Both the position numbers and the translations under genes were made by a program. From contig CAVRXU010000007.1 in the NCBI GenBank assembly GCA_963725155.1, positions 320,131 through 384,130 of the forward strand: a stretch of 64,000 nt of DNA. The letters run 5' to 3'. Every line of letters begins with the position of its first letter. Position 1 is the first letter of the stretch. Positions 12,749-32,262 of this stretch are shown here, one piece after another. Source of the stretch: an uncultured Microthrixaceae bacterium. Its GTDB lineage: Bacteria > Actinomycetota > Acidimicrobiia > Acidimicrobiales > DATDAH01. The notes under the pieces were generated by a model. It was not told where the DNA came from. It searched no databases and saw nothing but the letters and a program-made list of their open reading frames with translations.

Positions 12749-13999
12749 GTGGCGAGCCGTGATCGGTTCTGGGTCAAGCTGGCGCTGATCGCCCTGCTCG
12801 CCCTCGCCGTCCGCGTGGGCTACATCGGCGTGGCCAAGTGGTCCGACGAGGTCGAGTTCAGCGACGCCTTGTACTACGCCACCCAGGCCCAGGTCCTGGC
12901 GGAAGGTGGGGGGTTCGACTCTCGGGACCACGAACGGCCGGCGGCCGACCATGCTCCCCTCACCCAGGTCTCCCAGGCGCCCACCGCGCTGGTCTTCGGC
13001 CGGAGCGTGCTGGCCCAACGCCTGGTGCAGGCCGTGTACGGGGCCTTGGCGGTCGTGGCCATCGCCCTCCTGGCCCGGAAGGTCACCGGCCAGGACCGCG
13101 TGGCCCTGTGGGCGGGGCTCGTAGCCGCCGTGTATCCCAACCTCTGGGCCAACGACGCCGTGATCATGGCCGAGACGCTCACCGTCTTGCTCGTCGCCGT
13201 CCTCCTGTGGGCGGTCTACGACTACGAGGACGCCCCGGGCGGGCGCCGAGCCGTTCTCGTCGGCGCCCTGGCGGGGCTGGCTGCGCTGTCCCGGGCCGAG
13301 CTGGCCCTGCTCGGGGTCCTCGCCTTCGCCCCCCTCGCCCTGACCGCCGTCGGGCCCTGGTCACGGCGCCTCGGGCACCTCGCCCTCGCCGGCCTCGCGG
13401 GCATGGTGGTCTTGGCCCCCTGGCTGGTCTACAACGCCGGTCGGTTCGACCGGACCGTCCTGATCTCCACCAACGACGGCCTGACCCTCGTCGGGGCCAA
13501 TTGCGACACCCAGTACGACGGCCCGGACCCTGGCCTGTGGGACATCGCCTGCCTCCCGGCGGGGTCCTTCACCGATGCGCAGAGCCGCGACCAGTCCGTG
13601 ATCAACGCCGACTATCGCCACGTCGCCGTGGAGTACGCGCTGGACAACATCGGGGACCTGCCGCGGGTGGCCGCGGTCCGGGTGGCCCGCACGTGGAGCC
13701 TCTATGACCCGGCGTCGATGGTGCGGTTCAACGAGAACGAGGGACGGGAGCCGCCGGTGGGTTGGGCGGGGTTCGTGTCCTTCTGGCTGCTCGTGCCCTT
13801 CGCGGTGGGCGGCGCGTTGGTGCTCCGGGAACGGCGGCGGACGATCTGGCCACTGCTGTCGACCGTGGTCGTGGTCACCGTCGTCTCGGCCCTGTTCTAC
13901 GGGTTGGTGCGCTTCCGGGCGCCGGCCGAGGTCGCCTTGGTGGTGTTCGCCGCGGTCGCGCTGGCCGAGCTCCAGGACCGTCGTAGCGTCCCGGCGTGA
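12749..13999 (+). CDS. GT-C membrane glycosyltransferase (ArnT/GT39-like), paralog 1 of 4
   Basis: GTG start. Polytopic. Shares motifs with the other three paralogs: YPNLWANDAVIMAETL, LSRAE, CDTQYDG...DIAC, VRFRAPAEVALV. Confidence 0.7.
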   Translation: MASRDRFWVKLALIALLALAVRVGYIGVAKWSDEVEFSDALYYATQAQVLAEGGGFDSRDHERPAADHAPLTQVSQAPTALVFGRSVLAQRLVQAVYGALAVVAIALLARKVTGQDRVALWAGLVAAVYPNLWANDAVIMAETLTVLLVAVLLWAVYDYEDAPGGRRAVLVGALAGLAALSRAELALLGVLAFAPLALTAVGPWSRRLGHLALAGLAGMVVLAPWLVYNAGRFDRTVLISTNDGLTLVGANCDTQYDGPDPGLWDIACLPAGSFTDAQSRDQSVINADYRHVAVEYALDNIGDLPRVAAVRVARTWSLYDPASMVRFNENEGREPPVGWAGFVSFWLLVPFAVGGALVLRERRRTIWPLLSTVVVVTVVSALFYGLVRFRAPAEVALVVFAAVALAELQDRRSVPA

Positions 14000-14844
14000 G
14001 CCGTCTCGCCCCGGTCGCCATGATCGGCCTGGCGATCGCCCTCCTGGTGGGCTGTGGCGACGACGGGACCGCGGGCTCGTCGCCGACATCCGGGCCGGCC
14101 GACATCGCGACGAGCCGGCCGACGACCAGCGTGGTCCCCACGACGGAGGCGCCCGTACCCCAGCCCTTGCCGGGCGGGAACCTGGAGGTGCTGGCGGTGG
14201 GCGATTCGGTCATGTTCGACGCGACGGCGGCCATCCAGGCCGCGCTCGGGGCGACGGGCGCGGCGACGGTCCGCGCCGAGTCGGCCTTCGGCCTGGGCTT
14301 CTCCGACGGCGCGGCCGTCCCGTTCGCCGATGCCGCCGACGAGATCCTCGAAGGTGATCCCGCCGACCAGGTCGTCGTGATGGTCGGCTCGTGGGACCAC
14401 CTCACCGCCCAACGCGATCCCGAGGCCTATGCCGCGGCCGTCCACGACGCGCTGACGACCCTCGCCGATGACGGTCGCTCGGTGCTCGTGCTCGGCGAGC
14501 CCCCCAGCGATCCGGCCAAGGGCGAGGAGTCGGCCCGCACGGTGGTCAACCAGACCCTCGAGGCCGAGGCCGCCACCGTCGCGGGGGTGACCTACCTGCC
14601 CACCGACGAGGTCATCGGGGACGCCGACGGCGAGTACGTGCTGCGGGACGACCGCGGCGCCCTCCTGCGCAAGCCCGACGGTCGCCACCTCTGCCCCGAG
14701 GGGGCCGAGCGCTTCGGGGCGGCCGTCGTGACCGCGCTGCGCGAGGAGTGGGCGCTCCCGGGTCCCGACCCGACCTGGGTCGACGGGGCCTGGCGCACGG
14801 ACCGCCGCTACGACGACCCGCCCGGGGGCTGTGCCGCCGCCTGA
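13996..14844 (+). CDS. SGNH-hydrolase-fold lipoprotein, paralog 1 of 4
   Basis: GTG 13996 overlaps the upstream stop (GTGA). Lipobox LLVGC, T/P/S-rich linker, block I VLAVGDSVM, block V DGRHLCPEG, and a C-terminal W..W...GGC tail. Confidence 0.7.
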   Translation: MSRLAPVAMIGLAIALLVGCGDDGTAGSSPTSGPADIATSRPTTSVVPTTEAPVPQPLPGGNLEVLAVGDSVMFDATAAIQAALGATGAATVRAESAFGLGFSDGAAVPFADAADEILEGDPADQVVVMVGSWDHLTAQRDPEAYAAAVHDALTTLADDGRSVLVLGEPPSDPAKGEESARTVVNQTLEAEAATVAGVTYLPTDEVIGDADGEYVLRDDRGALLRKPDGRHLCPEGAERFGAAVVTALREEWALPGPDPTWVDGAWRTDRRYDDPPGGCAAA

Positions 14845-16187
14845 CGGGCGGGCCAACGACGCAACAGGCCGTCGGCGCCGACTCCGGCGACGACCACGAG
14901 GGCCACATCGGCCGGGACCCGGTAGCGGGTGATGCCGAAGGTGATGGCTGCGGCCAGGGCGACGACCACGACCGTGCTGAGGACGGGGATGAGCGTGATG
15001 CCCCGCCGGTGGAGGAGCACGCCGCCATAGAGGCCGAGGGGCAGGAGGGCGTAGTAGGCCCAGAGCCCGACGGTCGACGCCGCCTTGCCCCGACCTTCCA
15101 GCCACCAGTTGAGGAACACGTTCTGGCCCGGCTTGAAGACGTCGAACACCCGGCCCACCCGGGCCACCGCCACCAGGGGCAGGCGGCTCAGGTGGTCGTA
15201 GAAGTAGTCGTCGGACTCGTCGAGCAACTCGGCCTCGCGGACGGACTCGTCGGCCTCGTCCAGTTCGAGGGGCGGATCGGTGCCGATGCAGTTGGCGTGG
15301 TAGCCGATGTACTCGCCGTAGTAGGTGCTGTCGCAGCTGGCGTCGCTCATCACCGATCCGGCGCTGTTGGTCAGGAACACGGGCTCGTCGAAGCGGATCA
15401 GGTTGAACGCCACCCACGGCAGGAGCACCAGGGCACCGACCACCGCGCCGACCGCGACGAACCCGAAGCGCTCCTTCCACGACCGCCCCGGTAGCCGCAG
15501 GGCCAGCAGGGCGACGAGCACGACGAAGAAGAAGATCCCTTCGGTGCGGGTGAGCGCAGCGGCGCCGGTCGCGGCGGCCAGGGCGGCCATGGACCCGGGG
15601 GTCGGCTGGTCCCAGAAGCGGTGAGCCAGCAGCAGCATCACGGCGATGATCAAGGCGTAGAGGGACTCCGCCTGCAGCATCCCGTCGTTGATCCAGAGCA
15701 TCGGGTACAGCGCGGCGGCGCCCGCGGCCAGGAGCCCGGCGCGGGGACCGGCCAGGCGGCGGGCCAGGACGCCGATGACCACGACGGTGGCCACCCCGAG
15801 GACCCCCGAGGCGAGCCGGTGCGTCGTCGCCGACTGGAGGCCCACGGCGGAGAGCAGCCCGAGGACGGTCGAATAGCCGGGGGGATGGGACGCGCTGTCG
15901 GCCAGCTGGTGGGTCTGGAGGAACCAGTAGGGGTGGGCGAACAGGTGGCCGTCACCGAGGAGCAGGCCCTGGACGTGGTAGTAGGTGGCGTCGCCGGCCA
16001 GGCGGAAACAGGAGCCCGCACCGGTCACCGGCGGGTCGCACGTGGGGCGCACGACGAGCACCAGGACCCAGCGCACGGCCAGCGCCACGGCCGCGATGGT
16101 GCCCAGCGCCCACGCGAAGGGTTTGGCCGCCGGCCCCGCGTCCCGCCAGAATCGCTGGGGTGAAGGCATCTCTGGCAACCGTAGCAA
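14808..16187 (-). CDS. GT-C membrane glycosyltransferase (ArnT/GT39-like), paralog 2 of 4
   Basis: Motifs YPMLWINDGMLQAESL, LTRTE, CDSTYYGEYIGYHANC, TRYRVPADVALV. The start could instead be ATG 16169. Confidence 0.7.
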   Translation of the reverse strand: MLRLPEMPSPQRFWRDAGPAAKPFAWALGTIAAVALAVRWVLVLVVRPTCDPPVTGAGSCFRLAGDATYYHVQGLLLGDGHLFAHPYWFLQTHQLADSASHPPGYSTVLGLLSAVGLQSATTHRLASGVLGVATVVVIGVLARRLAGPRAGLLAAGAAALYPMLWINDGMLQAESLYALIIAVMLLLAHRFWDQPTPGSMAALAAATGAAALTRTEGIFFFVVLVALLALRLPGRSWKERFGFVAVGAVVGALVLLPWVAFNLIRFDEPVFLTNSAGSVMSDASCDSTYYGEYIGYHANCIGTDPPLELDEADESVREAELLDESDDYFYDHLSRLPLVAVARVGRVFDVFKPGQNVFLNWWLEGRGKAASTVGLWAYYALLPLGLYGGVLLHRRGITLIPVLSTVVVVALAAAITFGITRYRVPADVALVVVAGVGADGLLRRWPARQAAAQPPGGSS

Positions 16188-16588
16188 TCGCCCTCCTGAC
16201 GCTCAGTGCGTGCGGGGGCGACGACGGTGGCGGCGGAACGGACTCCGACGGGACGACGGCGACGTCGGTGGCCGGTGCCGACCTCAGCTCCTACGACACC
16301 GTCAGCGACCTCAACGATGCCCTCGGCGCCGGTGGCGTCGAGTGTGAGTTGGAGTACGAGGGCCTGACCGATGAGATCCGCGAGCTCAGCCAGTGCACCA
16401 TCGACGGCGGCCAGGCCATCCTCACCATCTGGTACGACGCCGACCTCATGACCGAGTTCCTCGCCCCCGAAGGGGCCGATCCGCCCGTCGCAGTGGCCTA
16501 CGGCGAGGACTGGACGGTCGAGCTCACCGACCCCGCCACCGCTGCCACCGTGGCCGAGGCCGCCGGTGGCACCACCACCGACGGCTGA
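16160..16588 (+). CDS. Hypothetical lipoprotein
   Basis: GTG start. Signal peptide with lipobox (VKASLATVAIALLTLSAC) followed by a Gly/Asp-rich linker. No recognised domain. Confidence 0.5.
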   Translation: MKASLATVAIALLTLSACGGDDGGGGTDSDGTTATSVAGADLSSYDTVSDLNDALGAGGVECELEYEGLTDEIRELSQCTIDGGQAILTIWYDADLMTEFLAPEGADPPVAVAYGEDWTVELTDPATAATVAEAAGGTTTDG

Positions 16589-17282
16589 CGCCGGGCGGCA
16601 CGGCGCCCGGCTCCTCGTGGGGATCCTGGCGTTCGGGCTGAGCATCGGATCCGCCGGGCCGGTCGGCGCCCACGTCGAAGCGGTGCCCCCGTTCGAGGGG
16701 CCTCCAGGGGGTCCGAAGGTGGCCGCCGTGGGCGACAGCCTGCTCGGCCAGCTCGAGTCGGAGGGCCCCACCCATCCCACCTCGACCCGAGCCTTCACCC
16801 GCAGCCTGATCGACGAGGGCTGGCGGGCCTCGGTCAAGCACCGCAACGCCTGGCGCACCGCCCGGGTGCGCGTCCTGGCCCGACAGGCCGTGGACCGCGG
16901 CGCCGTGGTCGTCATCGTGTCGGCCGGCTCGGGTGACGTCCGCTGGGTGCGGGAGAGCGCCGACCCGAGCTACGCCCGATGGCTCGTGCGGCGGGCCGTC
17001 GGCCTGCTCCTGGACGATCTCGAGCCGCAGTGCGTGGTGTGGCCCACGATCCCCGTCGTCGGCGGTGCGGGCGAACGCCGGACGGCGCAGGTGGTGAACC
17101 AGGTGCTCCGCGCCGCCGACGAGGGGTCGAGCCGGGTCCGCAGCCCCGACTGGGCCGCCGTCGCCCGGAGCCACCCGGGACGCTTCATCGCTGACGGCGT
17201 GCACCTCTCGCGGGCCGGAGAGGCCGCCTTTCAGCGCACCCTCCTGCACGCCGCCCGCCGTTGCGTGACCGGGCTCCGATGA
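16566..17282 (+). CDS. Secreted SGNH/GDSL-family hydrolase
   Basis: Signal peptide, block I VAAVGDSLL, block V DGVHLSRAGEAAF. Confidence 0.55.
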   Translation: MAPPPTADAGRHGARLLVGILAFGLSIGSAGPVGAHVEAVPPFEGPPGGPKVAAVGDSLLGQLESEGPTHPTSTRAFTRSLIDEGWRASVKHRNAWRTARVRVLARQAVDRGAVVVIVSAGSGDVRWVRESADPSYARWLVRRAVGLLLDDLEPQCVVWPTIPVVGGAGERRTAQVVNQVLRAADEGSSRVRSPDWAAVARSHPGRFIADGVHLSRAGEAAFQRTLLHAARRCVTGLR

Positions 17283-18109
17283 GCCCGGTCCGTGGACTGG
17301 CTGCCGTCGCCACCGCGCTGCTGCTCGTCGGTTGCGGCGCGGACGACGGGGACACCGCCGCCGCCGGTCCGACCTCGACCGCGCCACCCGCGACCTCGGC
17401 GCCCGCACCGACCACTGCGGTCGATGTCCCCCGCGTCCTGATCGCCGGGGACTCGGTGATGGAGGAGGCGGCCGGTGCGCTGACCTACGCCATCGAGGCG
17501 ACCAGCGGCGCCCACGCCGCCTTCGCCCTCGGCCCGGACCTCCCCCGCGATGCCGCCGACATCGCCGTCTGGCAGGCCGCGCTCGACGAGCACCGCCCCG
17601 ACCTCGTCGTGGTCTCCGTCGGGCACTGGGAGTACCTGGAGGTGCTGGGTGACTTCGCCGAAGGTGACCGGTTGGCGCCGGGCACCTACGCCTCCGAGAT
17701 CCTGGATCCGTTCGCCGACCTGGTCACCGCGGACGGTGCCCGCCTCCTCTGGGTCGGGCCCCTGGTCATCGACGACCCCGATGAATCCGAGTTCGTGGAC
17801 GGGCTGCAGAGGGACTTCGAAGCCCTGGCCGAGCGCCGGGACGACGTCGACTTCGTCGACGCCGACACCTGGGTCGCGCCCGACGGCTTCCGCGCCACCC
17901 TGCCGGGGCCGGACGGGCAGCCGGTGCCGATCCGGCGGGCCGACGGCATCCATCTGTGCCCGGAGGGCCAAGTCCTGTTGGCCGAAGGCCTCCTGAGCGT
18001 GATCGCCGACGAGCTCGAGCTGACGCCGTCACCGACCTGGGCCGATGAGTGGCGGGCGGAGCAGCCGACCGAACCGGGCGGCTGTGCGCCCGACTACCAG
18101 GGCGACTGA
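17279..18109 (+). CDS. SGNH-hydrolase-fold lipoprotein, paralog 2 of 4
   Basis: ATG 17279 overlaps the upstream stop (ATGA). Lipobox LLVGC, T/P/A linker, VLIAGDSVM, DGIHLCPEG, and a C-terminal W..W...GGC tail. Confidence 0.7.
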   Translation: MSPVRGLAAVATALLLVGCGADDGDTAAAGPTSTAPPATSAPAPTTAVDVPRVLIAGDSVMEEAAGALTYAIEATSGAHAAFALGPDLPRDAADIAVWQAALDEHRPDLVVVSVGHWEYLEVLGDFAEGDRLAPGTYASEILDPFADLVTADGARLLWVGPLVIDDPDESEFVDGLQRDFEALAERRDDVDFVDADTWVAPDGFRATLPGPDGQPVPIRRADGIHLCPEGQVLLAEGLLSVIADELELTPSPTWADEWRAEQPTEPGGCAPDYQGD

Positions 18110-18115
18110 TCGCCG

Positions 18116-18940
18116 TCAGGCGGCGAGGACGGCGGGGACCTCGCGGGGCACGTCGGCCAGGCGCTGGCCCAGCGGCGGCCCGGCCCGGCCCGCCAGCAGG
18201 CGATCGATGCGGCGAAGCATCCGTTTGCGGCCGTACCAGAGGAGGGGGCTGAGCACTCGGCCGGTCCCCGGCACCACCCAGTACGGCTCACCGGGGTCGG
18301 CGTCGTAGGGATGGCAGTAGGTGAACGGCACCGAGCCCAGCGGCTTGTCCCGCAACCCGGCCCGGACCACGGGCCATGGGAGGACCCGCAGGTAGGTGCC
18401 ACCCACCACCGGGAGACCGAGGGGGCCGGCCTTGATGATCGGGGCGGGGAGCTCCAGGAGCCCGGACGGCCAGGTGAAGGGGTGACGGGGCAGGCCCGGG
18501 TAGCCGTACAGCGGGTTCCAGGCGGGGAGGATGCTCGAGGAGTAGGTGAAGCCGAGGTCGACGAGGACCTCGGTGGCCCAGACGGTCTCGGGCACCAGCG
18601 AGAACGTCGGGGCGCGGAAGCCGTTGACGTCCTGGTCGGCCACCTGAGCCAGTAGGGCGCGACCCCGGGCCGTCTCCTCGCGGAACACCTCAGGGGTGAG
18701 CTCGGTGATCGGGGTGTGGCGCCATCCGTGGAGGCCGAGCTCGTGGCCCTGGGCGGCGATCTCGCGCACGAGCTCCGGGTGGTCCCGGACGATCTCGCCG
18801 ACCACGAAGACCGTGCCCACGACGCCCCGGTCGGCGCAGAAGGCGAGTACCCGACGGGTGGCGTCCAGGAGGCGGAGCTCGGTCCCGTCGTCGGGCCGGT
18901 GGTCCTCGACGTCGAAGGTGAAGGTGAAGGGCGGGGTCAT
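18116..18940 (-). CDS. Polysaccharide deacetylase (CE4, DUF3473-type)
   Basis: N-terminus FTFTFDVEDH, GHELGLHGWRH, and a DUF3473-like C-terminal half. Confidence 0.75.
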   Translation of the reverse strand: MTPPFTFTFDVEDHRPDDGTELRLLDATRRVLAFCADRGVVGTVFVVGEIVRDHPELVREIAAQGHELGLHGWRHTPITELTPEVFREETARGRALLAQVADQDVNGFRAPTFSLVPETVWATEVLVDLGFTYSSSILPAWNPLYGYPGLPRHPFTWPSGLLELPAPIIKAGPLGLPVVGGTYLRVLPWPVVRAGLRDKPLGSVPFTYCHPYDADPGEPYWVVPGTGRVLSPLLWYGRKRMLRRIDRLLAGRAGPPLGQRLADVPREVPAVLAA

Positions 18941-18961
18941 GGCTCGAGAGGGCGGGCGCGC

Positions 18962-19882
18962 TCAGTAGGCGTCGAGGTCGAGGAACTCGAAGGTATCCAG
19001 GCGGAAGGTCTCCTGGGGGACCTCGTCGCTGAAGCTGTGGACGACCAGGTTCAGAGGAGCCGGTCGCAACCGGTGGGGCGGCTGGACGCCCCGCACCCGC
19101 ACGAGGGCGTTGTAGCCGGCGTACACGGCGGCGGGCGCCCGGTGGTACCGGCAGACGGCGGCGACGGCCTTGCGGGCCGACAGGGGCTGGTCCATCGATC
19201 GGGCGCCACGGGGGAAGAGCTTGAGGACCACGGCCATCGGCACCGGCCCGAAGGCCGACCGGGTGGACACGACGACGAGGTCGTCATCGGCGTGAACGAC
19301 GTAGTTCCCGTGAGGGCGGGCCAGGCGCCACGCCAGCCGATCCGGGGCGTAGCTGTTGGTCCAGTGAACGGCGTCGTGCTGGTCCAGGTCGGCGGCCAGG
19401 GCGGTGAACGTCGAGCCGGCCAAGAACGGCTCGTCGACGACGTGGTGGTCCCAGCCGGCGCCGCTCCCGGTGGGCACGGCCACCTTCACCGGCATGGGCC
19501 CGAGGAAGCGGTAGCTCAGGTACTTGACGGCCCCCGGCGTCGACTTCTCGTTGGGAACCCCGATGACCATCTGGCGGCCCTGGGCGGTGGCCTCGGCGAA
19601 GTTCCGCAACCCGAGCTCGGACCAGTACCCCTTGCGCTGGGTACCCCGTCGGGTGACGGCGTTGAGCGAGAAGAGGAAGGGCGCCTCGCCCGCGGCGTTG
19701 CGGTAGGTCTGGGGCACCAGGGCGTAGTGGGCGACCCTTACGCCGCCCTCGTCGGCCGCCGCCTGGATGGCCGGCCCGTCGGGGTTCTGGTCATAGAGCC
19801 ACGCGAGGTACGCGTCGTCGACGAACCGGGGATCGGGCAGCTCCGCGTTCAACAACTCGGTGTTGAGCTCGTTGTCGTTCAT
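18962..19882 (-). CDS. GNAT-fold acyltransferase (possibly FemAB-like / Acetyltransf_6)
   Basis: 306 aa. Candidate CoA-binding segment VTRRGTQRKGYWSELGL. Its start overlaps the upstream stop (ATGA). The family assignment is tentative. Confidence 0.45.
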   Translation of the reverse strand: MNDNELNTELLNAELPDPRFVDDAYLAWLYDQNPDGPAIQAAADEGGVRVAHYALVPQTYRNAAGEAPFLFSLNAVTRRGTQRKGYWSELGLRNFAEATAQGRQMVIGVPNEKSTPGAVKYLSYRFLGPMPVKVAVPTGSGAGWDHHVVDEPFLAGSTFTALAADLDQHDAVHWTNSYAPDRLAWRLARPHGNYVVHADDDLVVVSTRSAFGPVPMAVVLKLFPRGARSMDQPLSARKAVAAVCRYHRAPAAVYAGYNALVRVRGVQPPHRLRPAPLNLVVHSFSDEVPQETFRLDTFEFLDLDAY

Positions 19883-22616: not shown

Positions 22617-23477
22617 TCACACGGGAGCCGGGCACTCCTCGGGCGCGTGGAGCTGTGGGGGCCGGCGCCACGGGCCCTGCTGCCAGCCGTAGACGGCGTC
22701 GACGTTCCACTGCCGGGCTATCTCGTCCAGTACCGGGGTGCCCAGCGCCACGACCCCGTCGGGGCAGATGTGGAGGCCGTCGGTCCGGCGCAGGCGCACC
22801 GGCATCCCGGTGGTGGGCGACACGACGATGTCGGCGTAACCCCCCTCCGGCCCCGACAGGTACTGGCCGCCGGGCAGGTAGTCCACGTCGTCGCGGGCGT
22901 CGGCGGCCCGGGCGAACACCGAGTTCAAGCCGACGAAGCGCTCGGTGGTCTCGGGGTCGTCGACCGCGGCCATGCCGATCCAGAGGACATTGGCCCCGTC
23001 CCGGGTGATGAGGTCGAGGAACGGGTCCACCACGCGGTTGCGGTATCGCTGGGGCCATCCGGGCTCGGCGGCAGCCGTCTCCCCGACCGTCTGGTCCTCC
23101 CAGAAGCCGACGAGGAGCACGATGAGGTCCGGATCGTGGGTCTGCAGCTCCTGGTTCCAGATGACGCGGTCGGCACCACCCCGGGCCAACGAGGGGGCCA
23201 GGACGAAGTGCCCGGTCGACTCGTGGGTGCCCTCGAGGGCCTGGATCAAGGCCGGGGCCACCTCGGCCATCACCGAGTCGCCGACGAAGGTCACCCGCAG
23301 GGGGTCGGCGGCTGTGGGCTGGCGCCCACCCGGTGGGAGGCTGGTGGTCGTCGGAGGCACCGTGGTGGTGGTCGTCGTCGGATCGGCAGCGGCCGAGCCG
23401 CCGTCGTCGGCGCAGGCGGCCGAGAGGGCGACGAGGAGCAGTACGAGCGCGACGGCTCGTCGGCAACGACCGGACAT
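22617..23477 (-). CDS. SGNH-hydrolase-fold lipoprotein, paralog 3 of 4
   Basis: Start ATG 23477 (MSGRCRRAVALVLLLVALSAAC lipobox), poly-Thr linker, VTFVGDSVM, DGLHICPDG, and a C-terminal W...W...EEC tail. The ORF-track extension to 23855 is rejected. Confidence 0.7.
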   Translation of the reverse strand: MSGRCRRAVALVLLLVALSAACADDGGSAAADPTTTTTTVPPTTTSLPPGGRQPTAADPLRVTFVGDSVMAEVAPALIQALEGTHESTGHFVLAPSLARGGADRVIWNQELQTHDPDLIVLLVGFWEDQTVGETAAAEPGWPQRYRNRVVDPFLDLITRDGANVLWIGMAAVDDPETTERFVGLNSVFARAADARDDVDYLPGGQYLSGPEGGYADIVVSPTTGMPVRLRRTDGLHICPDGVVALGTPVLDEIARQWNVDAVYGWQQGPWRRPPQLHAPEECPAPV

Positions 23478-25763: not shown

Positions 25764-25778
25764 GCTCCACCGCTCGTC

Positions 25779-28700
25779 GTGATGCCTCCCCGTACCTCCT
25801 CCGTCTTGACGCGCCTGCGCCGCAGCGTCCCGCTGCTGCTCCTGGCGGCCGTCACCTACCTGCCCCTGGTCTTCACCCAGCCGGGCCAGGTCGGCGCGGA
25901 CACGAAGACCTACCTGTACCTCGATCCGGGCCGCCTCCTGCGGGACGCCGCCTTCCTGTGGGATCCCGGGGTCGGCCTGGGCGGGGTGACCCACCAGGTC
26001 ATCGGCTACCTCTGGCCGATGGGGCCCTTCTACTGGTTCTTCGACGCCATCGGCGTGCCCGACTGGATGGCGCAGCGCCTGTGGCTGGGCAGTCTGATGT
26101 TCGCCGCGGGCGCGGGTGTCCTCTACCTCCTCCGCACCCTCGGCTGGCCCGACCGACCGGCCGACCACGACGACGCGAAGCCCTCTTCGGCGACCTGGTG
26201 GGACGCGGGCATGGTCGTGGCCGCCCTGGCCTACGCCCTGAGCCCATACGTCCTGGACTACGCGGCCCGGATCTCGGTGATCCTGCTGCCGTGGGCCGGG
26301 CTCCCGTGGCTCATCGCCTTCCTGGCCCGGGCCATCCGGGTCGGCGGGTGGCGCTACCCGGCGGCCTTCGCCCTGGTGACGCTGACCATCAGCAGCACCA
26401 ACCTGACCTCGGTCGTGCTCGTGGGCATCGGCCCGATCCTCTGGGTCGCCTTCGCGGTCTGGATCGAGCGGGAGGTGCCCTTCCGCCAGGCCTTGGGCGC
26501 GGTGTGGCGCACCGGGCTGCTGACCGTCGGCGTGTCCCTCTGGTGGTTCGTCGGTCTGGTCGTGGAAGGCCGCTACGGGATCCCCATCGTCCGCTACACC
26601 GAGACCTACCAGGCCGTGGCGGTGGCCTCCACGACCCCGGAGGTCATCCGCGGCCTCGGCTACTGGTTCTTCTACGGGAACGACAAGCTCGGCCAGTGGA
26701 TCATCCCGAGCATCCACTACATGCGCTACGGCATCCCGCTGTCGTTCGCCCTGCCGATCTTCGCCTTCCTCTCCGGTGCCCTGACCCGCTTCCGGCACCG
26801 GCTCTTCTTCATCACCCTGATCGTGATCGGGGCCGTGATGGCGGTCGGCGGCCACCCCTACGACGATCCGTCACCGGCAGGTGGCCTGCTGGTGGCATGG
26901 ACCAAGACCGACCTCGGGCTGGCCTTCCGGAGCACGGCCCGCGTGCTGCCGCTGCTCGTGCTGGGGACCTCAGTCCTCCTCGGCACGGGCGTGGTGGCCC
27001 TCGGGCGCCGACTCCCCCGCTTGGCCACGCCGATCGGGGTGCTGGCGGTGATCCTGGTCATCGCCAACCTGCCTGCGCCTTGGGTCGGCCAGATGGTGGA
27101 CCGGAACCTGCGCCGCGACGAGGACCTGCCCGACTACTGGGTCGACGCCGCCGCCCATCTCGACGCCCGGGACGACGGCACCCGCGTCCTCGAGCTACCG
27201 GGCACGGACTTCGCCGCCTACCGCTGGGGCAACACCGTCGACCCGATCACGCCGGGCCTGATGGACCGCCCGTACGTGGCCCGGGAGCTGATCCCCCTGG
27301 GCACACCGGTCGCCGCCAACCTGGTCAACGCCATCGACCGGCCGCTGCAGGAGGGCACCTTCGACCCCGACGCCTTGGCCCCCCTGGCCCGTCTCATCGG
27401 CGTGGGCGACATCGTGCTCCGCTCCGACCTCGAGTACGAGCGTTTCCGCACGCCCCGCCCGGAGACCACGTGGGCGCTGCTCCGGTCCGTCCCAGGGCTG
27501 GGTGAGCCGGTGGCCTTCGGCGAAGCGGTCGAGAACCAGCCCCGTGAACAGTTGCCGCTGTTGGACGAGATCGAGCTGGCCACCGACCAGACCCTCGAGG
27601 ACCCACCCCCCGTCGCCGTCTTCCCGGTCGATGACGCCGCCCCGATCGTGCGGGCCCTGCCCGCCGAGCATCCCATCGTGGTCTCCGGCGACGGTGACGG
27701 CCTGGTGGCCGCCACCGCGGCCGGGGTGATCGACCCCGACCGGGCGATCCTGTACAGCGCCGGCCTCCTCGACGAGGACGACCCAGCGATGTTCGACACC
27801 GTCCTGGACCAGGGCGCCGACGTCGTCATCACCGACTCCAACCGGCGTCGGGCCCGGCGCTGGGGGGCCATCCGGGAGAACGAGGGCTACACCGAGATGG
27901 CCGGCGAGGAGGCCCTCGAGTACGACGTGGGCGACGCCCGCCTCGACGTCTTCCCCGGCGCGTCCGACGACAGCTTCACGGTCGCCGTACAGCGCGGCGG
28001 GGCCACGATCCAGGCCAGCGCCTACGGCAACCCCGTCAGCTACACCCCAGGCGACCGGGCCTTCTTCGCCATGGACGGCGACCCCCGTACCGCCTGGAAG
28101 GTCGGGGCCTTCGCGAGGTCGAAGGCGAGTACCTCCGGATCACGACCGACGAACCGGTGACCACGGACCACATCGGCCTGACCCAGCCCCTGTCGACCGA
28201 CATCAACCGCTGGATCACCGAGGTCGAGCTGCGCTTCGACGGCGGCGATCCCGTGCGCGTGGACCTGACCGAGGCCTCCCGCACCCGTCCGGGCCAGGTC
28301 GTGGAGTTCCCCGAGCGGACCTTCCAGCGCCTCGACATCGAGATCCTGGCCGACACCATCGGCTTCCGGCCGAAGCTGGCCGGCGTCAGTGCGGTGGGCT
28401 TCTCCGAGGTCGATCTCGAGGGCCTGCAGCTCGAGGAGCTGATCCGTCCGCCGGTTGACCTCGTCGACGCCGTTGACGGCGATCTGACCGACCACCGCCT
28501 GAGCTACGTGCTCCAGCGCCAGCGCACCAACCCGGCCGAGCCCGTCCGGGTCGATGAGGAGCCGAGCATGCGCCGCCTGCTCGACGTCCCCGGTGAGCGG
28601 ACGTTCGAGCTCGACGGCGAGGCCCGCATCTCGGCCCAGGCCCCCGATCCGATGGTGGACCGCCTCCTGGGCCTGCCCGGCGCCGGCGCCGGTGGCCTCA

Positions 28701-30142
28701 CCGCCCGTTCCTCGGCCCATCTGGCCGGCTCGCTGGCCGCCCGGGCCTCCTCCGCGTTGGACGGGGACCCGTCGACCGCCTGGACGACGCCCTTCAACTC
28801 CCTCATGGGCCAGTACATGGAGGTCGAGTTGCCTGAGGCGCGGACCGTGGACCACCTGGACCTCCAGGTCGTGGCCGACGGCCGTCACTCGGTTCCCACC
28901 CGGATTCGCCTCACCGCAGGGGACGAATCCCGGGAGTTGACGGTGCCGCGGCTCCACGCCGGCGCCCGACCGGGGGCGGTGACCGACGTCCCGCTCGCGT
29001 TCGACCCCCTGGAGGGCGACACGTTCCGCCTCACCGTGCTCGAGGCTCGGCGGGCCACGACCATCGACTGGTACAGCGGTGGCCCCGCCATCCTCCCGAT
29101 CGGCATCGCCGAGATGGGCCTGCCCGGCGTCGTCCGGCCGGTGCCGCCCGAGGACGTGAGCGACCGCTGCCGCGACGACCTCCTGACCGTCGACGGCGAG
29201 CCGGTATCGGTCAGCCTCTCGGGCACGACCACCGATGCCGAGGCTCGACTGCCGCTCGCCCTCGAGGCCTGCGCCGGTCCCATCACGGCGTCGGGCGAGA
29301 CCGACCTCGTCGCCGCCGAGGGTCAGGACACTGGCCTGGACATCGACGCCCTCACCCTTTCCTCCGGTCCCGATGGCGGTGCCGCCGCTCCCGGGGTCAC
29401 GGGCACGGTGCCGCCCCCTCCATCGGTCGATCTCGAGACGCCCCACCTGCTCGAGTACCGGACCGAGGCCGACACCGACGAGCCGTACTGGTTGGCCGTC
29501 GGGCAGAGCTACGGGCCGGAATGGGCCGCCGATGCCGAGGGCGGCGAGATCCTCGGCCACGAGATCGTGTCCGGCTTCGCCAATGGCTGGTACGTCCAGC
29601 CCGACGGTGACGGTCCGGTCGCCGTGACCGTCACCTGGCCCCCGCAGCGACCGATCTGGCTGGCGATCGCGATCTCCCTCGTGGCGCTGTTGCTGTGCGG
29701 CATCGCCCTCGTGTTCGACCGCCGGCGGGCCAACCAGCCCGCCCGCGACCGGGCGCCGGCCATCACCCTGCTCTGGCCCCCGGCTCCGGAACGGCAGCTC
29801 GTGGCCGGTCGACCCGCCGTCGTGGCGATCGCCGGTGCCGCGGTCGGCGGCTGGTTGCTGGCCACGCCGGTGGTGGCCCTTGCCCTGGCCGTCGCCATGG
29901 CCGCGACGCTGCGGTGGCGGTGGGGCTCGCTCACCGTCCGCTTGGGCGCCGTGCTGGTCGTCCTCGGAGCCAGCCTCTACATCTTCACCAAGCAGTTGAC
30001 CGACAACCTGCCGCCGGACTTCGGCTGGCCCCAGAACTTCGACGCCGCCCACTGGGTGACCATGGGCGCCGTACTCGCCCTCGGCGTCGATGCTGTGGCC
30101 GAGTTGGTCCGGAGTCGGAGCCACTGGCGGATCGGGTCATGA
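25779..30142 (+). pseudogene. AftD-like / DUF3367 alpha-(1->3)-arabinofuranosyltransferase-family GT-C protein (~1450 aa), split by a -1 frameshift near 28115
   Basis: N-terminus ...YLPLVFTQPGQVGADTKTYLYLDPGRLL...WDPGVGLGGVTHQ is typical of this family. ORF 25779..28160 and ORF 28157..30142 join seamlessly (..DGDPRTAWKVGAFA|EVEGEYLRITTDEPVTTDHIGL..) if one base is restored. Confidence 0.7.
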
Positions 30143-31164
30143 AGCGGGTCGCGGTGGTCGTCGGTGTCCTGGTGGTCGTCGTCGTGCTGGCCGAGGTCGG
30201 GGCCCGGGCCTTTTCGCCCTACCTGCCTGAGCCATCCCTCTGGACCGACGACACCACCACCGTCAAGGTGGCCCAGCTCGACGCCCGGGCCTGTGTGGAC
30301 CTGGTCTTCGCCGGCAACTCGATGACCCGGGACGGCCTCGACCCGGTGGCGTTCGGCGAGGCCGACGCCGAGGACCGGATCACCTACAACGCCGCCCTCG
30401 ACGCCGCCACCCCCGCCCTGCTCCAGCGGTGGGTGCTGGACGAGGTCGATCCGCGGGTCGATCCCGACGGCGTCGTCCTCGGCCTCTCCAGCTTCGACCT
30501 GAACGACAACGCGGCCATCGGGCAGTCCGCCCTCGAGGCCTACGACAGTGCCCCCCTCAGCCGGGACGACATCTTCGGCCGGCTTCAGGCGCCCTTCATC
30601 GAGCACCTGGACCTGTTCCGCTACCGCAACCAGCTCCGGGACCCCGAGGTGGTCTGGGACGGCTTGGGGGCGTGGCGGGACGGTGACCGACAGCCCCGGC
30701 TGGGCCCTGATGGCCTGGAGGGGCTCCTGGGCCCGGAAGGTCAGGGTCTTTCGCGCCGCGACCTGAACTACGAGCCCAGCCCGCTGACGGAGCGCTTCGC
30801 CCAGAACGAGCTGCTCAACGACTTCCACCTCGGGGGGGAGCAGACCGAGGCGGCCGAGGACCTCCTGGCCGGCCTGGCCGACCGGGACGTCGACACCGCC
30901 GTGGTCGTCCTCCCGGTGACCCAGGACTACGTCGACCTCCACCCCGGGGGCAGGGCCCAGTACGACGAGTTCCTGGCCCTGGCCGAGCGCATCGCCACCG
31001 AGAACGGCGCCGAGTTCATCGACCTCCACGATCTGGCCCCCGACGACTCCTGGTTCGCCGACACCCACCACCTCAACGCCACCGGCTCCGCCGCCCTCAG
31101 CCAGGCCCTCCCCGCCCTCCTCGGCCCCGACTTCGCCCAGGGCAGCAGATGTGAAAGCGGCTGA
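30139..31164 (+). CDS. Membrane-anchored SGNH-like (DltD/AlgX-type) esterase or acyltransferase
   Basis: ATG 30139 overlaps the AftD-like stop (ATGA). N-terminal TM anchor, FAGNSMT (Ser block), and FADTHHLNATGSAALS (DxxH block). Confidence 0.45.
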   Translation: MKRVAVVVGVLVVVVVLAEVGARAFSPYLPEPSLWTDDTTTVKVAQLDARACVDLVFAGNSMTRDGLDPVAFGEADAEDRITYNAALDAATPALLQRWVLDEVDPRVDPDGVVLGLSSFDLNDNAAIGQSALEAYDSAPLSRDDIFGRLQAPFIEHLDLFRYRNQLRDPEVVWDGLGAWRDGDRQPRLGPDGLEGLLGPEGQGLSRRDLNYEPSPLTERFAQNELLNDFHLGGEQTEAAEDLLAGLADRDVDTAVVVLPVTQDYVDLHPGGRAQYDEFLALAERIATENGAEFIDLHDLAPDDSWFADTHHLNATGSAALSQALPALLGPDFAQGSRCESG

Positions 31165-31383
31165 GGGACCTTCCGCTTCGGTGCAGCCTGCTGAGCGCAG
31201 CGAAGCCAGTCAGTCAGATGTCACGGGAGCGAAGCACTCCGCCGACCTTCCGCCGGTGGGTGACGCTGCGCAGCGGAGCGGAGCGGCTCGGTGACCCCTG
31301 AGCTTCGGCGGAGCCGGACTTGCTGAGCGCAGCGAAGCCAGTCAGATGTAACTGAGCGCAGCGAAGCCAGTCACATGTAGCCG
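31145..31383. repeat. About 2.5 degenerate copies of the GC-rich repeat family, filling a convergent intergenic region
   Basis: The core gctgagcgcagcgaagccagtca occurs 3 times. The full left arm gtgacgctgcgcagcggagcggagcggctcggtgacccctgagcttcggcggagccgga occurs once. Confidence 0.7.
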
Positions 31384-32262
31384 TCACGCTTCGGGGCATT
31401 CCTCCGGAGGGAAGACCCAGCGCCAGTTGCGGTTGGACCAGTCCTCGGCCAGGGGGACGTCCCACTGGCGCTGGAGGTACCGGAGGACCGGGCGGGCCAG
31501 TCGCTCGGCGCCGTCGGCGCAGAGGTGCGTGGCGTCGAGGCGCCGGACGCGCTGGGGGGTGCCGCGGGGCCCCGGGAGGACGTCGGCCCAGCTCCCGTCG
31601 GGCCGGGCCAGGATGGTGTCACCCGGGATGTAGGTGAGGTCCGGGGAGTCGTGGGCCAGCTGGCGCACCGCCCGGTTCATCGACGACCACTCGAGTTGAC
31701 GGCGCGGGTCGATCGACGGGGGCATGGCGACCCACACGACGTCGGCGCCCTCGCTGGTCAGGAGGTCGAGGTAGGGATCGAGGTTCTCTCGCCGGTAGGC
31801 CCGCAGCCACGCCCGGGTGCCCAGGGGCTGCTCGCGGAGCGCGTCCTCGGCCATGCCCTCCCAGACGCCGATCATGATCACGACGACCTCGGGGTCGTAC
31901 TGGTCGAGCTGTCGGCGCCACAGGGTCCGCGTCACGTCCTCGCGGGGGATGCTCGGGGCGGCGACGAGGCGGGCGACGGCGTGACCCCCGTCCTGCAGCG
32001 TGGAGGAGATGGCCAGCGAGATGTCGGCCATGAGGGAGTCACCGGCCATGAGGACGCGGAGGGGGTCGTCGGCTGTGGGCCGCCGCCCGCCCGGTGGCGG
32101 CGGCGCGGTCGTGGTGGTGGGGCTGCTCGAGGTGGAGGAGGTGGTCGAGGCCGCCGGTGCGTCGACCGCCGTCGGGGCGGCCCTTTCGTCGCCTTCCCCG
32201 CAGGCGGTGGCCAGCAGGGCGACGGTGAGCAGCGCCACGACGAGCGGCGCCCGCCGCGTCAA
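31384..32262 (-). CDS. SGNH-hydrolase-fold lipoprotein, paralog 4 of 4
   Basis: TTG 32262 overlaps the upstream stop (TTGA). Lipobox LLATAC, S/T/P linker, VLMAGDSLM, DATHLCADG, and a C-terminal W...W...EEC tail. Confidence 0.65.
   Translation of the reverse strand: MTRRAPLVVALLTVALLATACGEGDERAAPTAVDAPAASTTSSTSSSPTTTTAPPPPGGRRPTADDPLRVLMAGDSLMADISLAISSTLQDGGHAVARLVAAPSIPREDVTRTLWRRQLDQYDPEVVVIMIGVWEGMAEDALREQPLGTRAWLRAYRRENLDPYLDLLTSEGADVVWVAMPPSIDPRRQLEWSSMNRAVRQLAHDSPDLTYIPGDTILARPDGSWADVLPGPRGTPQRVRRLDATHLCADGAERLARPVLRYLQRQWDVPLAEDWSNRNWRWVFPPEECPEA

What the first reader, a model, noticed from the sequence alone, without database searches (positions are those of the whole stretch)
13996..32262. 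Four lipid-anchored SGNH paralogs that resemble the detached periplasmic domain of the local AT3-SGNH acyltransferase
The lipoproteins at 13996-14844, 17279-18109, 22617-23477 and 31384-32262 (277-293 aa) share a common plan. Each has a lipobox (LVGC, LVGC, SAAC, ATAC) and a Thr/Pro/Ser-rich linker. Each has block I (VLAVGDSVM, VLIAGDSVM, VTFVGDSVM, VLMAGDSLM). Each has block V with an adjacent Cys (DGRHLCPEG, DGIHLCPEG, DGLHICPDG, DATHLCADG). Each ends in a C-terminal W-x(2-4)-W...(G/E)(G/E)-C tail, which suggests a disulfide tying the C-terminus to the catalytic His loop. The same motif order forms the C-terminal domain of the AT3 protein at 40988-43030 (VLLVGDSVM ... LADGVHMTEFG), but that domain lacks both Cys. 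Three of the four sit directly next to a transferase: a GTGA overlap with GT-C paralog 1, 27 nt upstream of paralog 4, and a TTGA overlap with GT2 32259-32960. In OafA/OatA-type enzymes the SGNH domain performs the final extracytoplasmic acyl transfer. Here it appears detached, lipid-anchored and multiplied. That suggests residue-specific O-acylation or de-acylation stations, possibly served by the single AT3 domain.
Basis: partly seen in the sequence, partly recalled or inferred. Interest (0 to 1): 0.68.

Follow-up and report, generated by a model that had tools for sequence, protein, structure and literature searches.

The report
Lipid-anchored PatB-like acyl-transfer enzymes, multiplied
Four membrane-tethered enzymes in a cell-wall sugar-polymer gene cluster of an uncultured Acidimicrobiales bacterium belong to an undescribed branch of a family that adds acyl groups to wall polymers. 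In other microbes the same domain is fused to the membrane protein that supplies the acyl group.

Summary
All four ORFs are full-length Pfam DUF459 (PatB family) SGNH proteins with lipoboxes, an intact Ser/Asp/His triad and two conserved Cys.

- The family prototype, PatB, is already a free-standing enzyme, so detachment alone is not unusual.
- The local AT3 C-terminal domain is the poorest match to the four proteins.
- AT3 homologues in other genomes do carry C-terminal domains of exactly this subtype. One compact syntenic cluster encodes GT-C, AT3 and a P1-like domain as a single 1186-aa ORF.

The subtype has three marks:
- The block III oxyanion Asn is replaced by Trp (GxND becomes GxW[E/D]).
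- A Cys sits two residues after the catalytic His.
- A 25-30 aa C-terminal tail ends in a second Cys. The two Cys are present together or absent together across about 150 representatives.

The gene cluster is conserved across Microthrixaceae and Iamiaceae MAGs. It holds one to four copies, and P1 is gained and lost together with one GT-C gene.

My best reading is extracytoplasmic O-acyltransferases for a GT-C/AftD-like glycan, plausibly fed by the AT3. An esterase role is not excluded. I rate it a new variant of a known kind, of moderate to high interest.

The parts
13996..14844 (+). P1: DUF459 (PatB-family) SGNH lipoprotein of the Trp subtype. Lipobox LLVGC, GDS, block III GSWDH, DGRHLC, tail ...RYDDPPGGC.
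   Evidence: Pfam DUF459 E 1.4e-17 and PF19040 37.4 bits, above its cut-off. GTGA overlap with the upstream GT-C gene. Closest relatives outside its own orthologues include the C-terminal domains of AT3 fusions: P0211 at 39% identity and 125 bits, P0212 at 107 bits.
17279..18109 (+). P2: DUF459 lipoprotein. Lipobox LLVGC, GDS, GHWEY, DGIHLC, tail ...EPGGC.
   Evidence: Pfam DUF459 E 7.9e-16. ATGA overlap with the upstream SGNH gene. The orthologue clade has 99% bootstrap support.
22617..23477 (-). P3: DUF459 lipoprotein. Lipobox LSAAC, GDS, GFWED, DGLHIC, tail ...APEECP. First gene of the run P3, GT-C, GT-C, U306, deacetylase.
   Evidence: Pfam DUF459 E 1.5e-24. AF2 model has mean pLDDT 87, with domain and tail above 90. 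Best fold matches are PatB entries 7trr, 7tjb and 8tlb. The next GT-C gene starts 27 nt downstream.
31384..32262 (-). P4: DUF459 lipoprotein. Lipobox LATAC, GDS, GVWEG, DATHLC, tail ...PPEECP. By position it is the ancestral copy, lying between the GT4/GT2 genes and the DltD-like gene.
   Evidence: Pfam DUF459 E 6.1e-24. TTGA overlap with the GT2 gene 32259-33092. The single-copy gene in distant genomes occupies this position.
40988..43030 (-). AT3 (Acyl_transf_3) membrane acyltransferase fused to a divergent DUF459 domain. Block III is EACCDY, block V is DGVHMT, and there is no tail.
   Evidence: Pfam results. The N-domain resembles SucT (NCBIfam E 1e-31, below cut-off). AT3 homologues lie inside the cluster in L018-L023 and L029.
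12749..13999 (+). GT-C (PMT_2) glycosyltransferase GTC1, translationally coupled to P1.
   Evidence: Pfam PMT_2 E 2e-13. GTGA overlap with P1.
14808..16187 (-). GT-C (PMT_2) GTC2, convergent with P1. It is gained and lost together with P1.
   Evidence: Pfam. Present together with P1 in 4 of 4 close loci and absent together in 7 of 7.
16566..17282 (+). A further exported SGNH protein (GDS ... DGVH) that is not DUF459. It is coupled to P2.
   Evidence: Translation. Weak match to the DUF459 profile. It replaces P2 in L005 and L017.
18116..22589 (-). The rest of the P3 operon: GT-C GTC4 (21276-22589), GT-C GTC3 (19879-21339 or 21588), conserved unknown U306 (18962-19882) and a polysaccharide deacetylase (18116-18940).
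   Evidence: Pfam. The gene order is conserved in L001, L005-L011 and L020-L023.
32259..33092 (-). GT2 glycosyltransferase, translationally coupled to P4.
   Evidence: Pfam Glycos_transf_2 E 5e-30. TTGA overlap with P4. The GT2-P4 pair is conserved in all lineages with 45% identity or more.
25779..31164 (+). AftD-like GT-C split into two ORFs (25779-28160 and 28157-30142), followed by a DltD-like membrane-anchored SGNH gene (30139-31164).
   Evidence: Pfam GT-C_AftD E 1e-92, plus CBM_AftD and DltD/GDSL_2. The split is a frameshift relative to the intact 1457-aa orthologue.

Best explanation
**What they are.** P1-P4 are four diverged paralogs (30-40% identity) of an undescribed actinobacterial branch of the PatB/DUF459 SGNH family. 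Each is exported, lipid-anchored to the outer face of the cytoplasmic membrane and held away from it by a Thr/Pro/Ser linker.

**What marks the branch.**
- The Ser (GDS) and Asp-x-x-His triad is kept.
- The block III oxyanion Asn is replaced by an almost invariant Trp (GxND becomes GxW[E/D]).
- A C-terminal tail of about 25-30 residues is added. Its last Cys most likely forms a disulfide with the Cys two residues after the catalytic His.

**What they do (inferred).** They belong to a conserved Acidimicrobiales gene cluster that builds an extracytoplasmic glycan. That cluster holds GT-C enzymes (several PMT_2-type and one AftD-like), GT2 polyprenyl-phosphate-sugar synthase-like enzymes, a deacetylase and a methyltransferase.

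The most likely mechanism is the last step of O-acylation:
1. An AT3 membrane protein carries the acyl group across the membrane as an acyl-enzyme, as OatA does.
2. The SGNH Ser takes the acyl group.
3. The SGNH domain passes it to a sugar hydroxyl.

Each paralog would be specialised for a different acceptor and physically associated with a particular GT-C or GT2 step.

**Shown versus inferred.** Shown: family, fold, motifs, synteny and the fusions. Inferred: the disulfide, the direction of the reaction, the AT3 as donor and the acceptor.
For: **Family and fold**
- Pfam DUF459 matches over the full profile for all four proteins.
- A profile search of PDB sequences finds PatB at E 1e-17, with GDS and DGxH aligned to PatB Ser133 and Asp302/His305.
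- The AF2 model has pLDDT 87, and PatB structures are its top five fold matches, with target-normalised TM-score 0.68-0.73.

**Subtype**
- In the alignment, canonical TM-anchored DUF459 proteins have GxND, H-L-T, no tail and no Cys. The lipoprotein clade has GxWE, H-L-C-P and the tail Cys.
- An exhaustive profile search gave 253 cluster representatives at E<=1e-30.
- Among the best 150, 124 of 126 Trp-type proteins have both Cys and 2 have neither. All 12 Asn-type proteins have neither.

**Pathway linkage**
- The same gene order occurs in 26 loci from Microthrixaceae, Iamiaceae and other Acidimicrobiales MAGs.
- P1 and GTC2 are present together in 4 of 4 close loci and absent together in 7 of 7.
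- Start/stop overlaps couple P1, P2 and P4 to their upstream genes.

**AT3 link**
- The AT3 gene lies inside the cluster in L018-L023.
- Trp/Cys-type domains are fused to AT3 in P0175, P0211 and P0208. In P0120, P0191 and P0164 they follow an AT3 plus a second SGNH domain.
- The AT3 parts of these fusions match the window's AT3 at E 1e-83 to 1e-110. Their C-domains match P1 or P3 at 90-114 bits, against 15-28 bits for the window's own AT3 C-domain.
- L029 is a compact syntenic cluster in which GT-C, AT3 and a P1-like domain form one open 1186-aa ORF.
- In AT3-SGNH enzymes the SGNH domain performs the final transfer (PMC12148441, PMC9558356).
Against: - There is no biochemical evidence of any kind. 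All relatives come from uncultured organisms and are annotated as hypothetical.
- The block III Asn contributes to the oxyanion hole in PatB (Asn196; PMC12148441). Its loss could mean altered or reduced catalysis.
- The local AT3 has its own fused domain, so it does not obviously need detached partners.
- The tree does not resolve whether the lipoproteins derive from AT3-fused domains. Bootstrap support for a lipoprotein-plus-AT3 grouping is only 51%.
- The two GT-C fusions are singletons from metagenomes. P0153 keeps a lipobox-like junction, so it may be a read-through of two coupled genes.
- The window carries two frameshifts in cluster genes. The cluster may be partly decayed, or the assembly may contain indel errors.
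Confidence: 0.55

Rival explanations
1. They are O-acyl esterases. In this reading they play the role Ape1 plays in the PatA/PatB/Ape1 system, or they act as maturation de-acylases. They would trim or edit acyl groups that the AT3-DUF459 enzyme places on the glycan or on lipid-linked intermediates.
For: Most SGNH proteins are hydrolases, and the triad is intact. The cluster also contains another de-acylating enzyme, a polysaccharide deacetylase. The local AT3 already has its own transfer domain. PatB itself was first named Ape2 and thought to be an esterase (PMC9487903).
Against: The same subtype sits at the C-terminus of AT3 proteins, sometimes as their only SGNH domain (P0175, P0211). That position is the transferase position in OatA and OafA. 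The nearest solved relatives are transferases. Replacing the polar oxyanion Asn with a bulky Trp does not suggest an optimised hydrolase, although this last point is inference.
Confidence: 0.25
2. They are acyltransferases that do not use the AT3. The donor would be an unlinked MBOAT-type partner, as PatA is for PatB, or an ester lipid of the membrane they are anchored to.
For: The family prototype PatB takes its acetyl group from an MBOAT C-terminal acyl-Tyr (PMC12148441). Lipid anchoring places the active site next to membrane lipids. The local AT3 domain is the most distant relative of the four.
Against: The 64-kb window holds no MBOAT and no ORF ending in the FxYxxF shuttle motif. Several independent fusions join this subtype to AT3. 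The AT3 gene is embedded in the cluster in distant lineages.
Confidence: 0.12
3. They are true PatB orthologues that O-acetylate peptidoglycan MurNAc.
For: PatB is the best match by sequence and by fold. NCBIfam PatB gives E 3e-10 for P3.
Against: The NCBIfam score is 39.8 bits against a cut-off of 580. Identity is 16-22%. There is no patA or ape1 gene nearby. The context is a GT-C/AftD-like glycan cluster, and the four paralogs have different neighbours. The oxyanion Asn is missing.
Confidence: 0.04
4. They are catalytically inert glycan-binding or scaffold subunits of GT-C complexes, that is, pseudo-enzymes.
For: The oxyanion Asn is lost and block II is degenerate in P1 and P2. A few family members have GDG in place of GDS (6 of 150). 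A Trp in the active-site cleft could stack on a sugar ring.
Against: Ser, Asp and His are invariant in all four proteins and in almost all of about 130 Trp-type representatives, across very deep divergence. That pattern points to selection on catalysis.
Confidence: 0.04

Closest known systems
PatB (peptidoglycan O-acetyltransferase B; Pfam DUF459/PF04311; PDB 7tjb, 7trr, 8tlb)
   Same: Same Pfam family and same fold, including the region of the beta-hairpin 'wings'. The Ser-Asp-His triad is in the same blocks, and the block II residue lies at the same spacing from the catalytic Ser (+28). Both are free-standing, membrane-tethered extracytoplasmic proteins.
   Different: Identity is only 16-22%. 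These proteins have a lipobox anchor where PatB has an N-terminal TM helix. Block III Asn196 is replaced by Trp. A Cys pair and a C-terminal tail of about 25-30 aa are added. No MBOAT (PatA) or Ape1 lies nearby. The genomic context is a GT-C glycan cluster rather than a peptidoglycan O-acetylation operon, and there are four paralogs.
AT3-SGNH O-acyltransferases (OatA, OafA/OafB; mycobacterial SucT)
   Same: An AT3 protein with a fused SGNH-type domain is part of the system. Its N-domain resembles SucT (NCBIfam E 1e-31). Domains of the lipoprotein subtype occur fused to homologous AT3 proteins elsewhere. SucT acylates GT-C-built arabinan, a comparable setting.
   Different: Here the Trp/Cys-type domains are separate genes, lipid-anchored and multiplied. 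The fused domains of OatA and OafA belong to PF19040, not DUF459. No detached SGNH partner of an AT3 has been demonstrated (PMC9558356 poses this as an open question).
MBOAT/SGNH two-component acylation systems (DltB-DltX-DltD, AlgI-AlgJ/AlgX, WssH-WssI)
   Same: The logic is the same: a membrane acyl translocator plus a separate extracytoplasmic SGNH transferase. A DltD-like SGNH gene also sits in this cluster.
   Different: The window holds no MBOAT and no FxYxxF shuttle motif. The candidate translocator here is an AT3.

Membership tests
SGNH hydrolase superfamily | Block I GDS with the nucleophile Ser | tested here: met
   GDS is invariant in P1-P4 and in all aligned homologues.
SGNH hydrolase superfamily | Block V D-x-x-H (catalytic Asp and His) | tested here: met
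   DGRH, DGIH, DGLH and DATH, aligned to PatB D302 and H305.
SGNH hydrolase superfamily | Block III G-x-N-D (oxyanion Asn) | tested here: not met
   The four proteins read GSWD, GHWE, GFWE and GVWE. The Trp aligns column for column with the Asn of canonical DUF459 proteins (GANDG, GGNDA). This placement rests on alignment and on the secondary structure of the model.
SGNH hydrolase superfamily | Block II Gly or other backbone donor | tested here: inconclusive
   P3 and P4 have APS[L/I], with the Ser at the same +28 spacing as PatB Ser161. P1 has FGLGF and P2 has GPDLP. The geometry could not be checked without coordinates.
SGNH hydrolase superfamily | Alpha/beta/alpha SGNH fold | tested here: met
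   The AF2 model has pLDDT above 90 over the domain. Its top 24 Foldseek hits are SGNH enzymes.
PatB / DUF459 (PF04311) | Score above the Pfam gathering threshold over the whole domain | tested here: met
   58-87 bits against a cut-off of 27.2, covering profile positions 1-196 of 197.
PatB / DUF459 (PF04311) | Equivalog-level identity with PatB (NCBIfam NF045704) | tested here: not met
   The best score is 39.8 bits against a cut-off of 580.
PatB / DUF459 (PF04311) | Partner MBOAT (PatA) with a C-terminal FxYxxF acyl-Tyr shuttle motif | tested here: not met
   The window has no MBOAT domain and no ORF with the motif in its last 12 residues. The rest of the genome was not available.
PatB / DUF459 (PF04311) | Acetyl transfer to peptidoglycan through an acetyl-Ser intermediate | not testable with these tools
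   This needs biochemistry.
AT3-SGNH fused acyltransferases (PF01757 + PF19040) | SGNH domain covalently fused to an AT3 membrane domain | tested here: not met
   P1-P4 are separate 276-292-aa ORFs with their own signal peptides. Homologous domains are fused to AT3 in other genomes.
AT3-SGNH fused acyltransferases (PF01757 + PF19040) | Match to PF19040 above threshold | tested here: inconclusive
   P1 (37.4 bits) and P4 (35.3 bits) exceed the cut-off of 27. P2 (19.5) and P3 (15.9) do not. DUF459 is the stronger match for all four.
Bacterial lipoproteins | Signal peptide with a lipobox and an invariant +1 Cys | tested here: met
   Each has a positively charged n-region, a hydrophobic core and one of L-V-G-C, S-A-A-C or A-T-A-C. 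The lipobox Cys is invariant in alignment A3 and is present in most full-length homologues.
Bacterial lipoproteins | Lgt/Lsp processing and actual lipidation | not tested
   The genome outside the window was not available. An LGT gene lies two genes upstream of the AT3 fusion gene in L028, but that is a different organism.

The most novel reading that the evidence does not exclude
The cluster encodes a distributed acyl relay. One AT3 translocator, through its acyl-enzyme intermediate, feeds several detached, lipid-anchored Trp-type SGNH transferases. Each transferase is docked to a particular GT-C or GT2 step, so the glycan is acylated position by position as it is assembled. This would be the first AT3 shown to work with free-standing SGNH partners. 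It would also define a new SGNH active-site design, with Trp in place of the oxyanion Asn and a disulfide-stapled tail on the catalytic His loop.
Probability: 0.3. Interest if true: 0.8.

Novelty: new variant of a known kind. Interest (0 to 1): 0.6.

Why it matters
**An open question in the AT3 field.** The 2022 review of AT3 proteins (PMC9558356) asks whether AT3 membrane acyltransferases ever work with separate SGNH partners. This system offers a concrete case that can be tested. The same domain subtype occurs free and lipid-anchored, fused to AT3, and fused to both GT-C and AT3, all within homologous gene clusters.

**A sizeable uncharacterised branch of the PatB family.** At least 250 clusters at 50% identity belong to it. 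Its active site is altered, which bears on how SGNH enzymes favour transfer over hydrolysis.

**A wall about which little is known.** The cluster points to acyl-decorated, GT-C-built envelope glycans in Acidimicrobiia. My literature searches found no papers on this class's wall polysaccharides, and the class is abundant in soil, water and activated sludge (Microthrixaceae).

Tried and rejected
1. **Further DUF459 copies in the window.** A profile scan of all six frames found only the four lipoproteins and the AT3 domain. It also gave one weak hit, which turned out to be a different SGNH protein at 16566-17282.
2. **A local MBOAT or DltX-like acyl shuttle.** I annotated most ORFs in the window with Pfam and scanned for a C-terminal FxYxxF motif. 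Neither search found anything.
3. **Phylogeny to decide whether the lipoproteins derive from an AT3-fused domain.** The NJ tree groups the lipoproteins with the AT3-fused domains, but with only 51% bootstrap support. The origin is left unresolved. The first bootstrap script timed out.
4. **Homologue search with the local AT3 C-domain.** It returned mostly gene fragments from short contigs. The one free-standing 302-aa hit on a long contig (P0072) lies in a frameshift-ridden region of a long contig, so it is not a real detached copy.
5. **Measuring the Cys-Cys distance in the AF2 model.** Coordinates are not exposed by the tool, so I used covariation of the two Cys instead.
6. **Taxonomic breadth through AFDB.** The library was not available. 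Cluster look-ups gave no organism names for the fusion proteins.
7. **True PatB orthology.** Rejected on the NCBIfam score, the genomic context and the missing Asn.
8. **First genome scan.** It failed because alignment A2 had no conserved stretch long enough to search with. I repeated it with the narrower alignment A3.

Full report

Yes. Each has these features in order:
- a short positively charged N-terminus and a hydrophobic core;
- a lipobox (LLVGC, LLVGC, LSAAC, LATAC);
- a low-complexity Thr/Pro/Ser/Ala linker;
- block I, GDS[V/L]M;
- block V, D-x-x-H-[L/I]-C;
- a C-terminal W-x(2-4)-W...[E/G][E/G]-C tail.

Third-position GC is 0.88-0.93, as expected for genuine genes in this 72% GC sequence. 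All four match Pfam DUF459 (PF04311) from profile position 1 to 196 of 197, with E from 8e-16 to 1.5e-24.

The AT3 protein at 40988-43030 has Acyl_transf_3 at residues 56-388 and DUF459 at 472-669, with E 7e-18.

The junctions hold at base level:
- GTGA overlap between GT-C and P1;
- TTGA overlap between GT2 and P4;
- 27 nt between P3 and the next GT-C;

**2. What family is it?**

DUF459 is the PatB family. A profile built from the five domains finds N. gonorrhoeae PatB (7tjb, 7trr) at E 1e-17, C. jejuni PatB (8tlb) and the DUF459 entry 8gr2. GDS aligns to PatB Ser133, and DGxH aligns to Asp302 and His305.

An AlphaFold2 model of P3 has mean pLDDT 87. The catalytic domain and the C-terminal tail are above 90, and the linker is disordered. 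The five PatB-family entries are its best fold matches, with target-normalised TM-score 0.68-0.73. Generic SGNH esterases follow, and OatA and OafA domains are not among the significant hits.

The reference point is therefore PatB, a free-standing periplasmic O-acetyltransferase. [quoted passage not shown] It is not the OafA/OatA type of domain.

**3. A distinct subtype**

Canonical DUF459 proteins from the same bacterial class (P0059-P0063, P0065, P0066) are anchored by a TM helix. They look like PatB:
- block II S[S/T]GL;
- block III GxND;
- block V DG[I/T]HL[T/S];
- no tail and no Cys.

The lipoprotein clade differs at each point:
- block III is G-x-W-[E/D], so the oxyanion Asn (Asn196 in PatB) is replaced by Trp;
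- block V is followed by Cys-Pro;
- the chain is extended by a conserved tail, W..G.WR....P[E/G][E/G]C.

An exhaustive HMMER search of 1.84 billion cluster representatives gave 5570 hits at E<=1e-3 and 253 at E<=1e-30. Among the best 150:
- 124 of 126 Trp-type sequences have both Cys, and the other two have neither and no tail;
- all 12 Asn-type sequences have neither Cys;
- seven of the ten sequences with another residue at the Asn position also carry both Cys.

The mature lipoproteins contain only these two Cys. This all-or-none pattern, together with the confidently modelled tail, is what a disulfide between the tail end and the catalytic His loop predicts. I could not measure the distance because model coordinates are not exposed, so the disulfide remains an inference.

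Ser, Asp and His are invariant across the clade. That argues for retained catalysis.

**4. Context and conservation**

The window is a cell-envelope glycan locus running from about 8.4 kb to 34.2 kb, plus 41-44 kb:
- a PIG-V-like membrane protein;
- five PMT_2-type GT-C genes;
- an AftD-like GT-C with its CBM;
- three GT2 genes, one of them followed by a DUF2304 gene;
- a GT4;
- a polysaccharide deacetylase;
- a methyltransferase;
- an FAD amine-oxidase-like protein.

Besides the four lipoproteins and the AT3 fusion, it holds two further SGNH proteins (16566-17282 and the DltD-like 30139-31164).

Homologues of P3 and P1 come only from metagenomes and from MAGs named Acidimicrobiales, Microthrixaceae or Iamiaceae. 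All are annotated as hypothetical.

In 26 fetched loci the gene order is conserved: GT4, GT2, P4, DltD-like, AftD, MTase, DUF2304, GT2, P3, GT-C, GT-C, U306, deacetylase, P2 or the other SGNH, (GT-C, P1), GT-C, oxidase, GT-C.

Copy number ranges from one in the most distant genomes, where the single gene sits at the P4 position, to four in the window, L009 and L011. P1 and the GT-C gene 14808-16187 are present together in 4 of 4 close loci and absent together in 7 of 7. They behave as one module.

**5. Relation to the AT3**

Direct similarity between the lipoproteins and the local AT3 C-domain is weak. Identity is 24-25%. BLAST gives 47-48 bits for P4, 39 bits for P2 and nothing for P1 or P3. 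That domain also has a third kind of block III (EACCDY) and no tail. A bootstrapped NJ tree does not resolve the three groups; support for lipoproteins plus AT3-fused domains is 51%.

Three lines of evidence nevertheless connect the subtype to AT3.
- **Position in the cluster.** In distant relatives (L018-L023) the AT3 gene lies inside the cluster, next to the GT2, AftD and GT4 genes and a few kb from the single lipoprotein gene.
- **Fusions elsewhere.** Among the top representatives, Trp/Cys-type domains form the C-terminus of AT3 proteins (P0175, P0211, P0208). In P0120, P0191 and P0164 they follow an AT3 plus a second SGNH domain. The AT3 parts match the window's AT3 at E 1e-83 to 1e-110. 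Their C-domains score 90-114 bits against P1 or P3, but only 15-28 bits against the window's own AT3 C-domain. P1 is closer to these fused domains (up to 39% identity, 125 bits) than to P2-P4 (55-68 bits).
- **A compact syntenic cluster.** L029 has the order GT-C, oxidase, GT-C, deacetylase, X, U306, GT2, DUF2304, GT4, AftD. X is a single open 1186-aa ORF containing a GT-C, an AT3 and a P1-like domain.

A second protein, P0153, joins a GT-C to a Trp-type domain. It keeps a lipobox-like junction, so it could be a read-through of two coupled genes.

It is not supported by the local AT3 domain that prompted it.

**6. Mechanism**

By analogy with OatA/OafA and PatA/PatB, the SGNH Ser takes an acyl group from an acyl-Tyr on the membrane translocator and passes it to a sugar hydroxyl (PMC12148441). 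The Trp-type domain occupies that position in the AT3 fusions. The window has no MBOAT and no FxYxxF shuttle motif. I therefore favour O-acyl transfer with the AT3 as donor, and paralogs specialised for different acceptors and tied to particular GT-C or GT2 steps.

The resemblance of the AT3 N-domain to mycobacterial SucT (NCBIfam E 1e-31, below cut-off), together with the AftD-like GT-C, makes acylation of an arabinan-like polymer a reasonable analogy. The acyl group and the glycan themselves are unknown.

An esterase role, editing acyl groups installed by the AT3 fusion, is the main rival. Sequence alone cannot exclude it. The Asn-to-Trp change might exclude water or provide a stacking platform for a sugar, but that is speculation.

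**7. Novelty and verdict**

The superfamily, the family and the translocator-plus-detached-SGNH logic are all known. New here are:
- the Trp/Cys-tail subtype, with at least 250 clusters at 50% identity and no literature found;
- its lipid-anchored, multiplied form inside a GT-C glycan cluster;
- the fusion evidence linking a detached SGNH to an AT3, a link the AT3 review treats as an open question (PMC9558356).

I rate it a new variant of a known kind, with interest 0.6.

Caveats:
- Everything here is computational.
- The organisms are uncultured.
- The window shows frameshifts in the AftD-like and GT4 genes relative to intact orthologues. Either the assembly has indel errors or this copy of the cluster is decaying. 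The four lipoprotein genes are intact.

Noticed in passing
window 25779-30142 (junction near 28157): The AftD-like GT-C is split into two overlapping ORFs in different frames. The closest relative (L004) has one 1457-aa ORF that is 95% and 89% identical to the two halves. This is a frameshift, caused either by an assembly indel or by a pseudogene.
   Followed up: partly
window 32815-34229 (shift near 33640-33690): The GT4 glycosyltransferase is also broken by a frameshift relative to the intact 390-aa orthologue in L002. tblastn switches from frame 3 to frame 2.
   Followed up: partly
window 16566-17282 (+): A fifth exported SGNH protein (VAAVGDSLL ... IADGVHLS) that is not DUF459 and has no Pfam hit. 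Its stop overlaps the P2 start (ATGA). In L005 and L017 it occupies the place of P2.
   Followed up: partly
window 30139-31164 (+): A membrane-anchored DltD-like SGNH protein with GNS in place of GDS in block I and DTHH in block V. It is conserved immediately downstream of the AftD-like gene in every locus that covers this position, yet no MBOAT (DltB-like) partner is present in the window.
   Followed up: no
window 18962-19882 (-): A 306-aa cytoplasmic protein (U306) with no Pfam match. It is strictly conserved between the GT-C pair and the polysaccharide deacetylase in nearly all related loci, including the compact cluster L029.
   Followed up: no
window 11203-12728 (+): An FAD amine-oxidase-like protein and a 124-aa ORF with no Pfam hit, which overlaps its stop by 4 nt, are followed by GT-C GTC1 and P1 in an apparent operon. 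The oxidase is conserved next to GT-C genes in all related clusters. It might act on a lipid-linked sugar donor.
   Followed up: no
window 23430-23477 and 32215-32262; homologues P0020, P0025, P0027: The n-regions of P3, P4 and many of their orthologues contain twin arginines followed by a hydrophobic stretch (CRRAVAL, TRRAPLVV, ARRFVAL). This resembles a Tat signal. Tat export of a folded protein would complicate the disulfide idea.
   Followed up: no
L018, L021, L023 (AT3 C-terminal domains): The AT3-fused domains of distant relatives also have Trp at block III (VGAWEIF). They carry a different set of four Cys (FCE...DTC and LCPxEDC) and no tail. Loss of the Asn is therefore wider than the lipoprotein clade.
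   Followed up: partly
window 44022-48032 (-): A conservon-like signalling set lies just beyond the AT3/GT2 pair: a NIT-HAMP histidine kinase, a Roadblock/LC7 protein and an ATP_bind_1 GTPase. A GGDEF-EAL protein (34603-36681) sits between the two halves of the glycan locus.
   Followed up: no
proteins P0120, P0191, P0164: Some AT3 proteins carry two extracytoplasmic SGNH domains in tandem: a PF19040-type domain followed by a Trp/Cys-type DUF459 domain. This architecture might mean a two-step relay or two separate acceptor specificities.
   Followed up: partly
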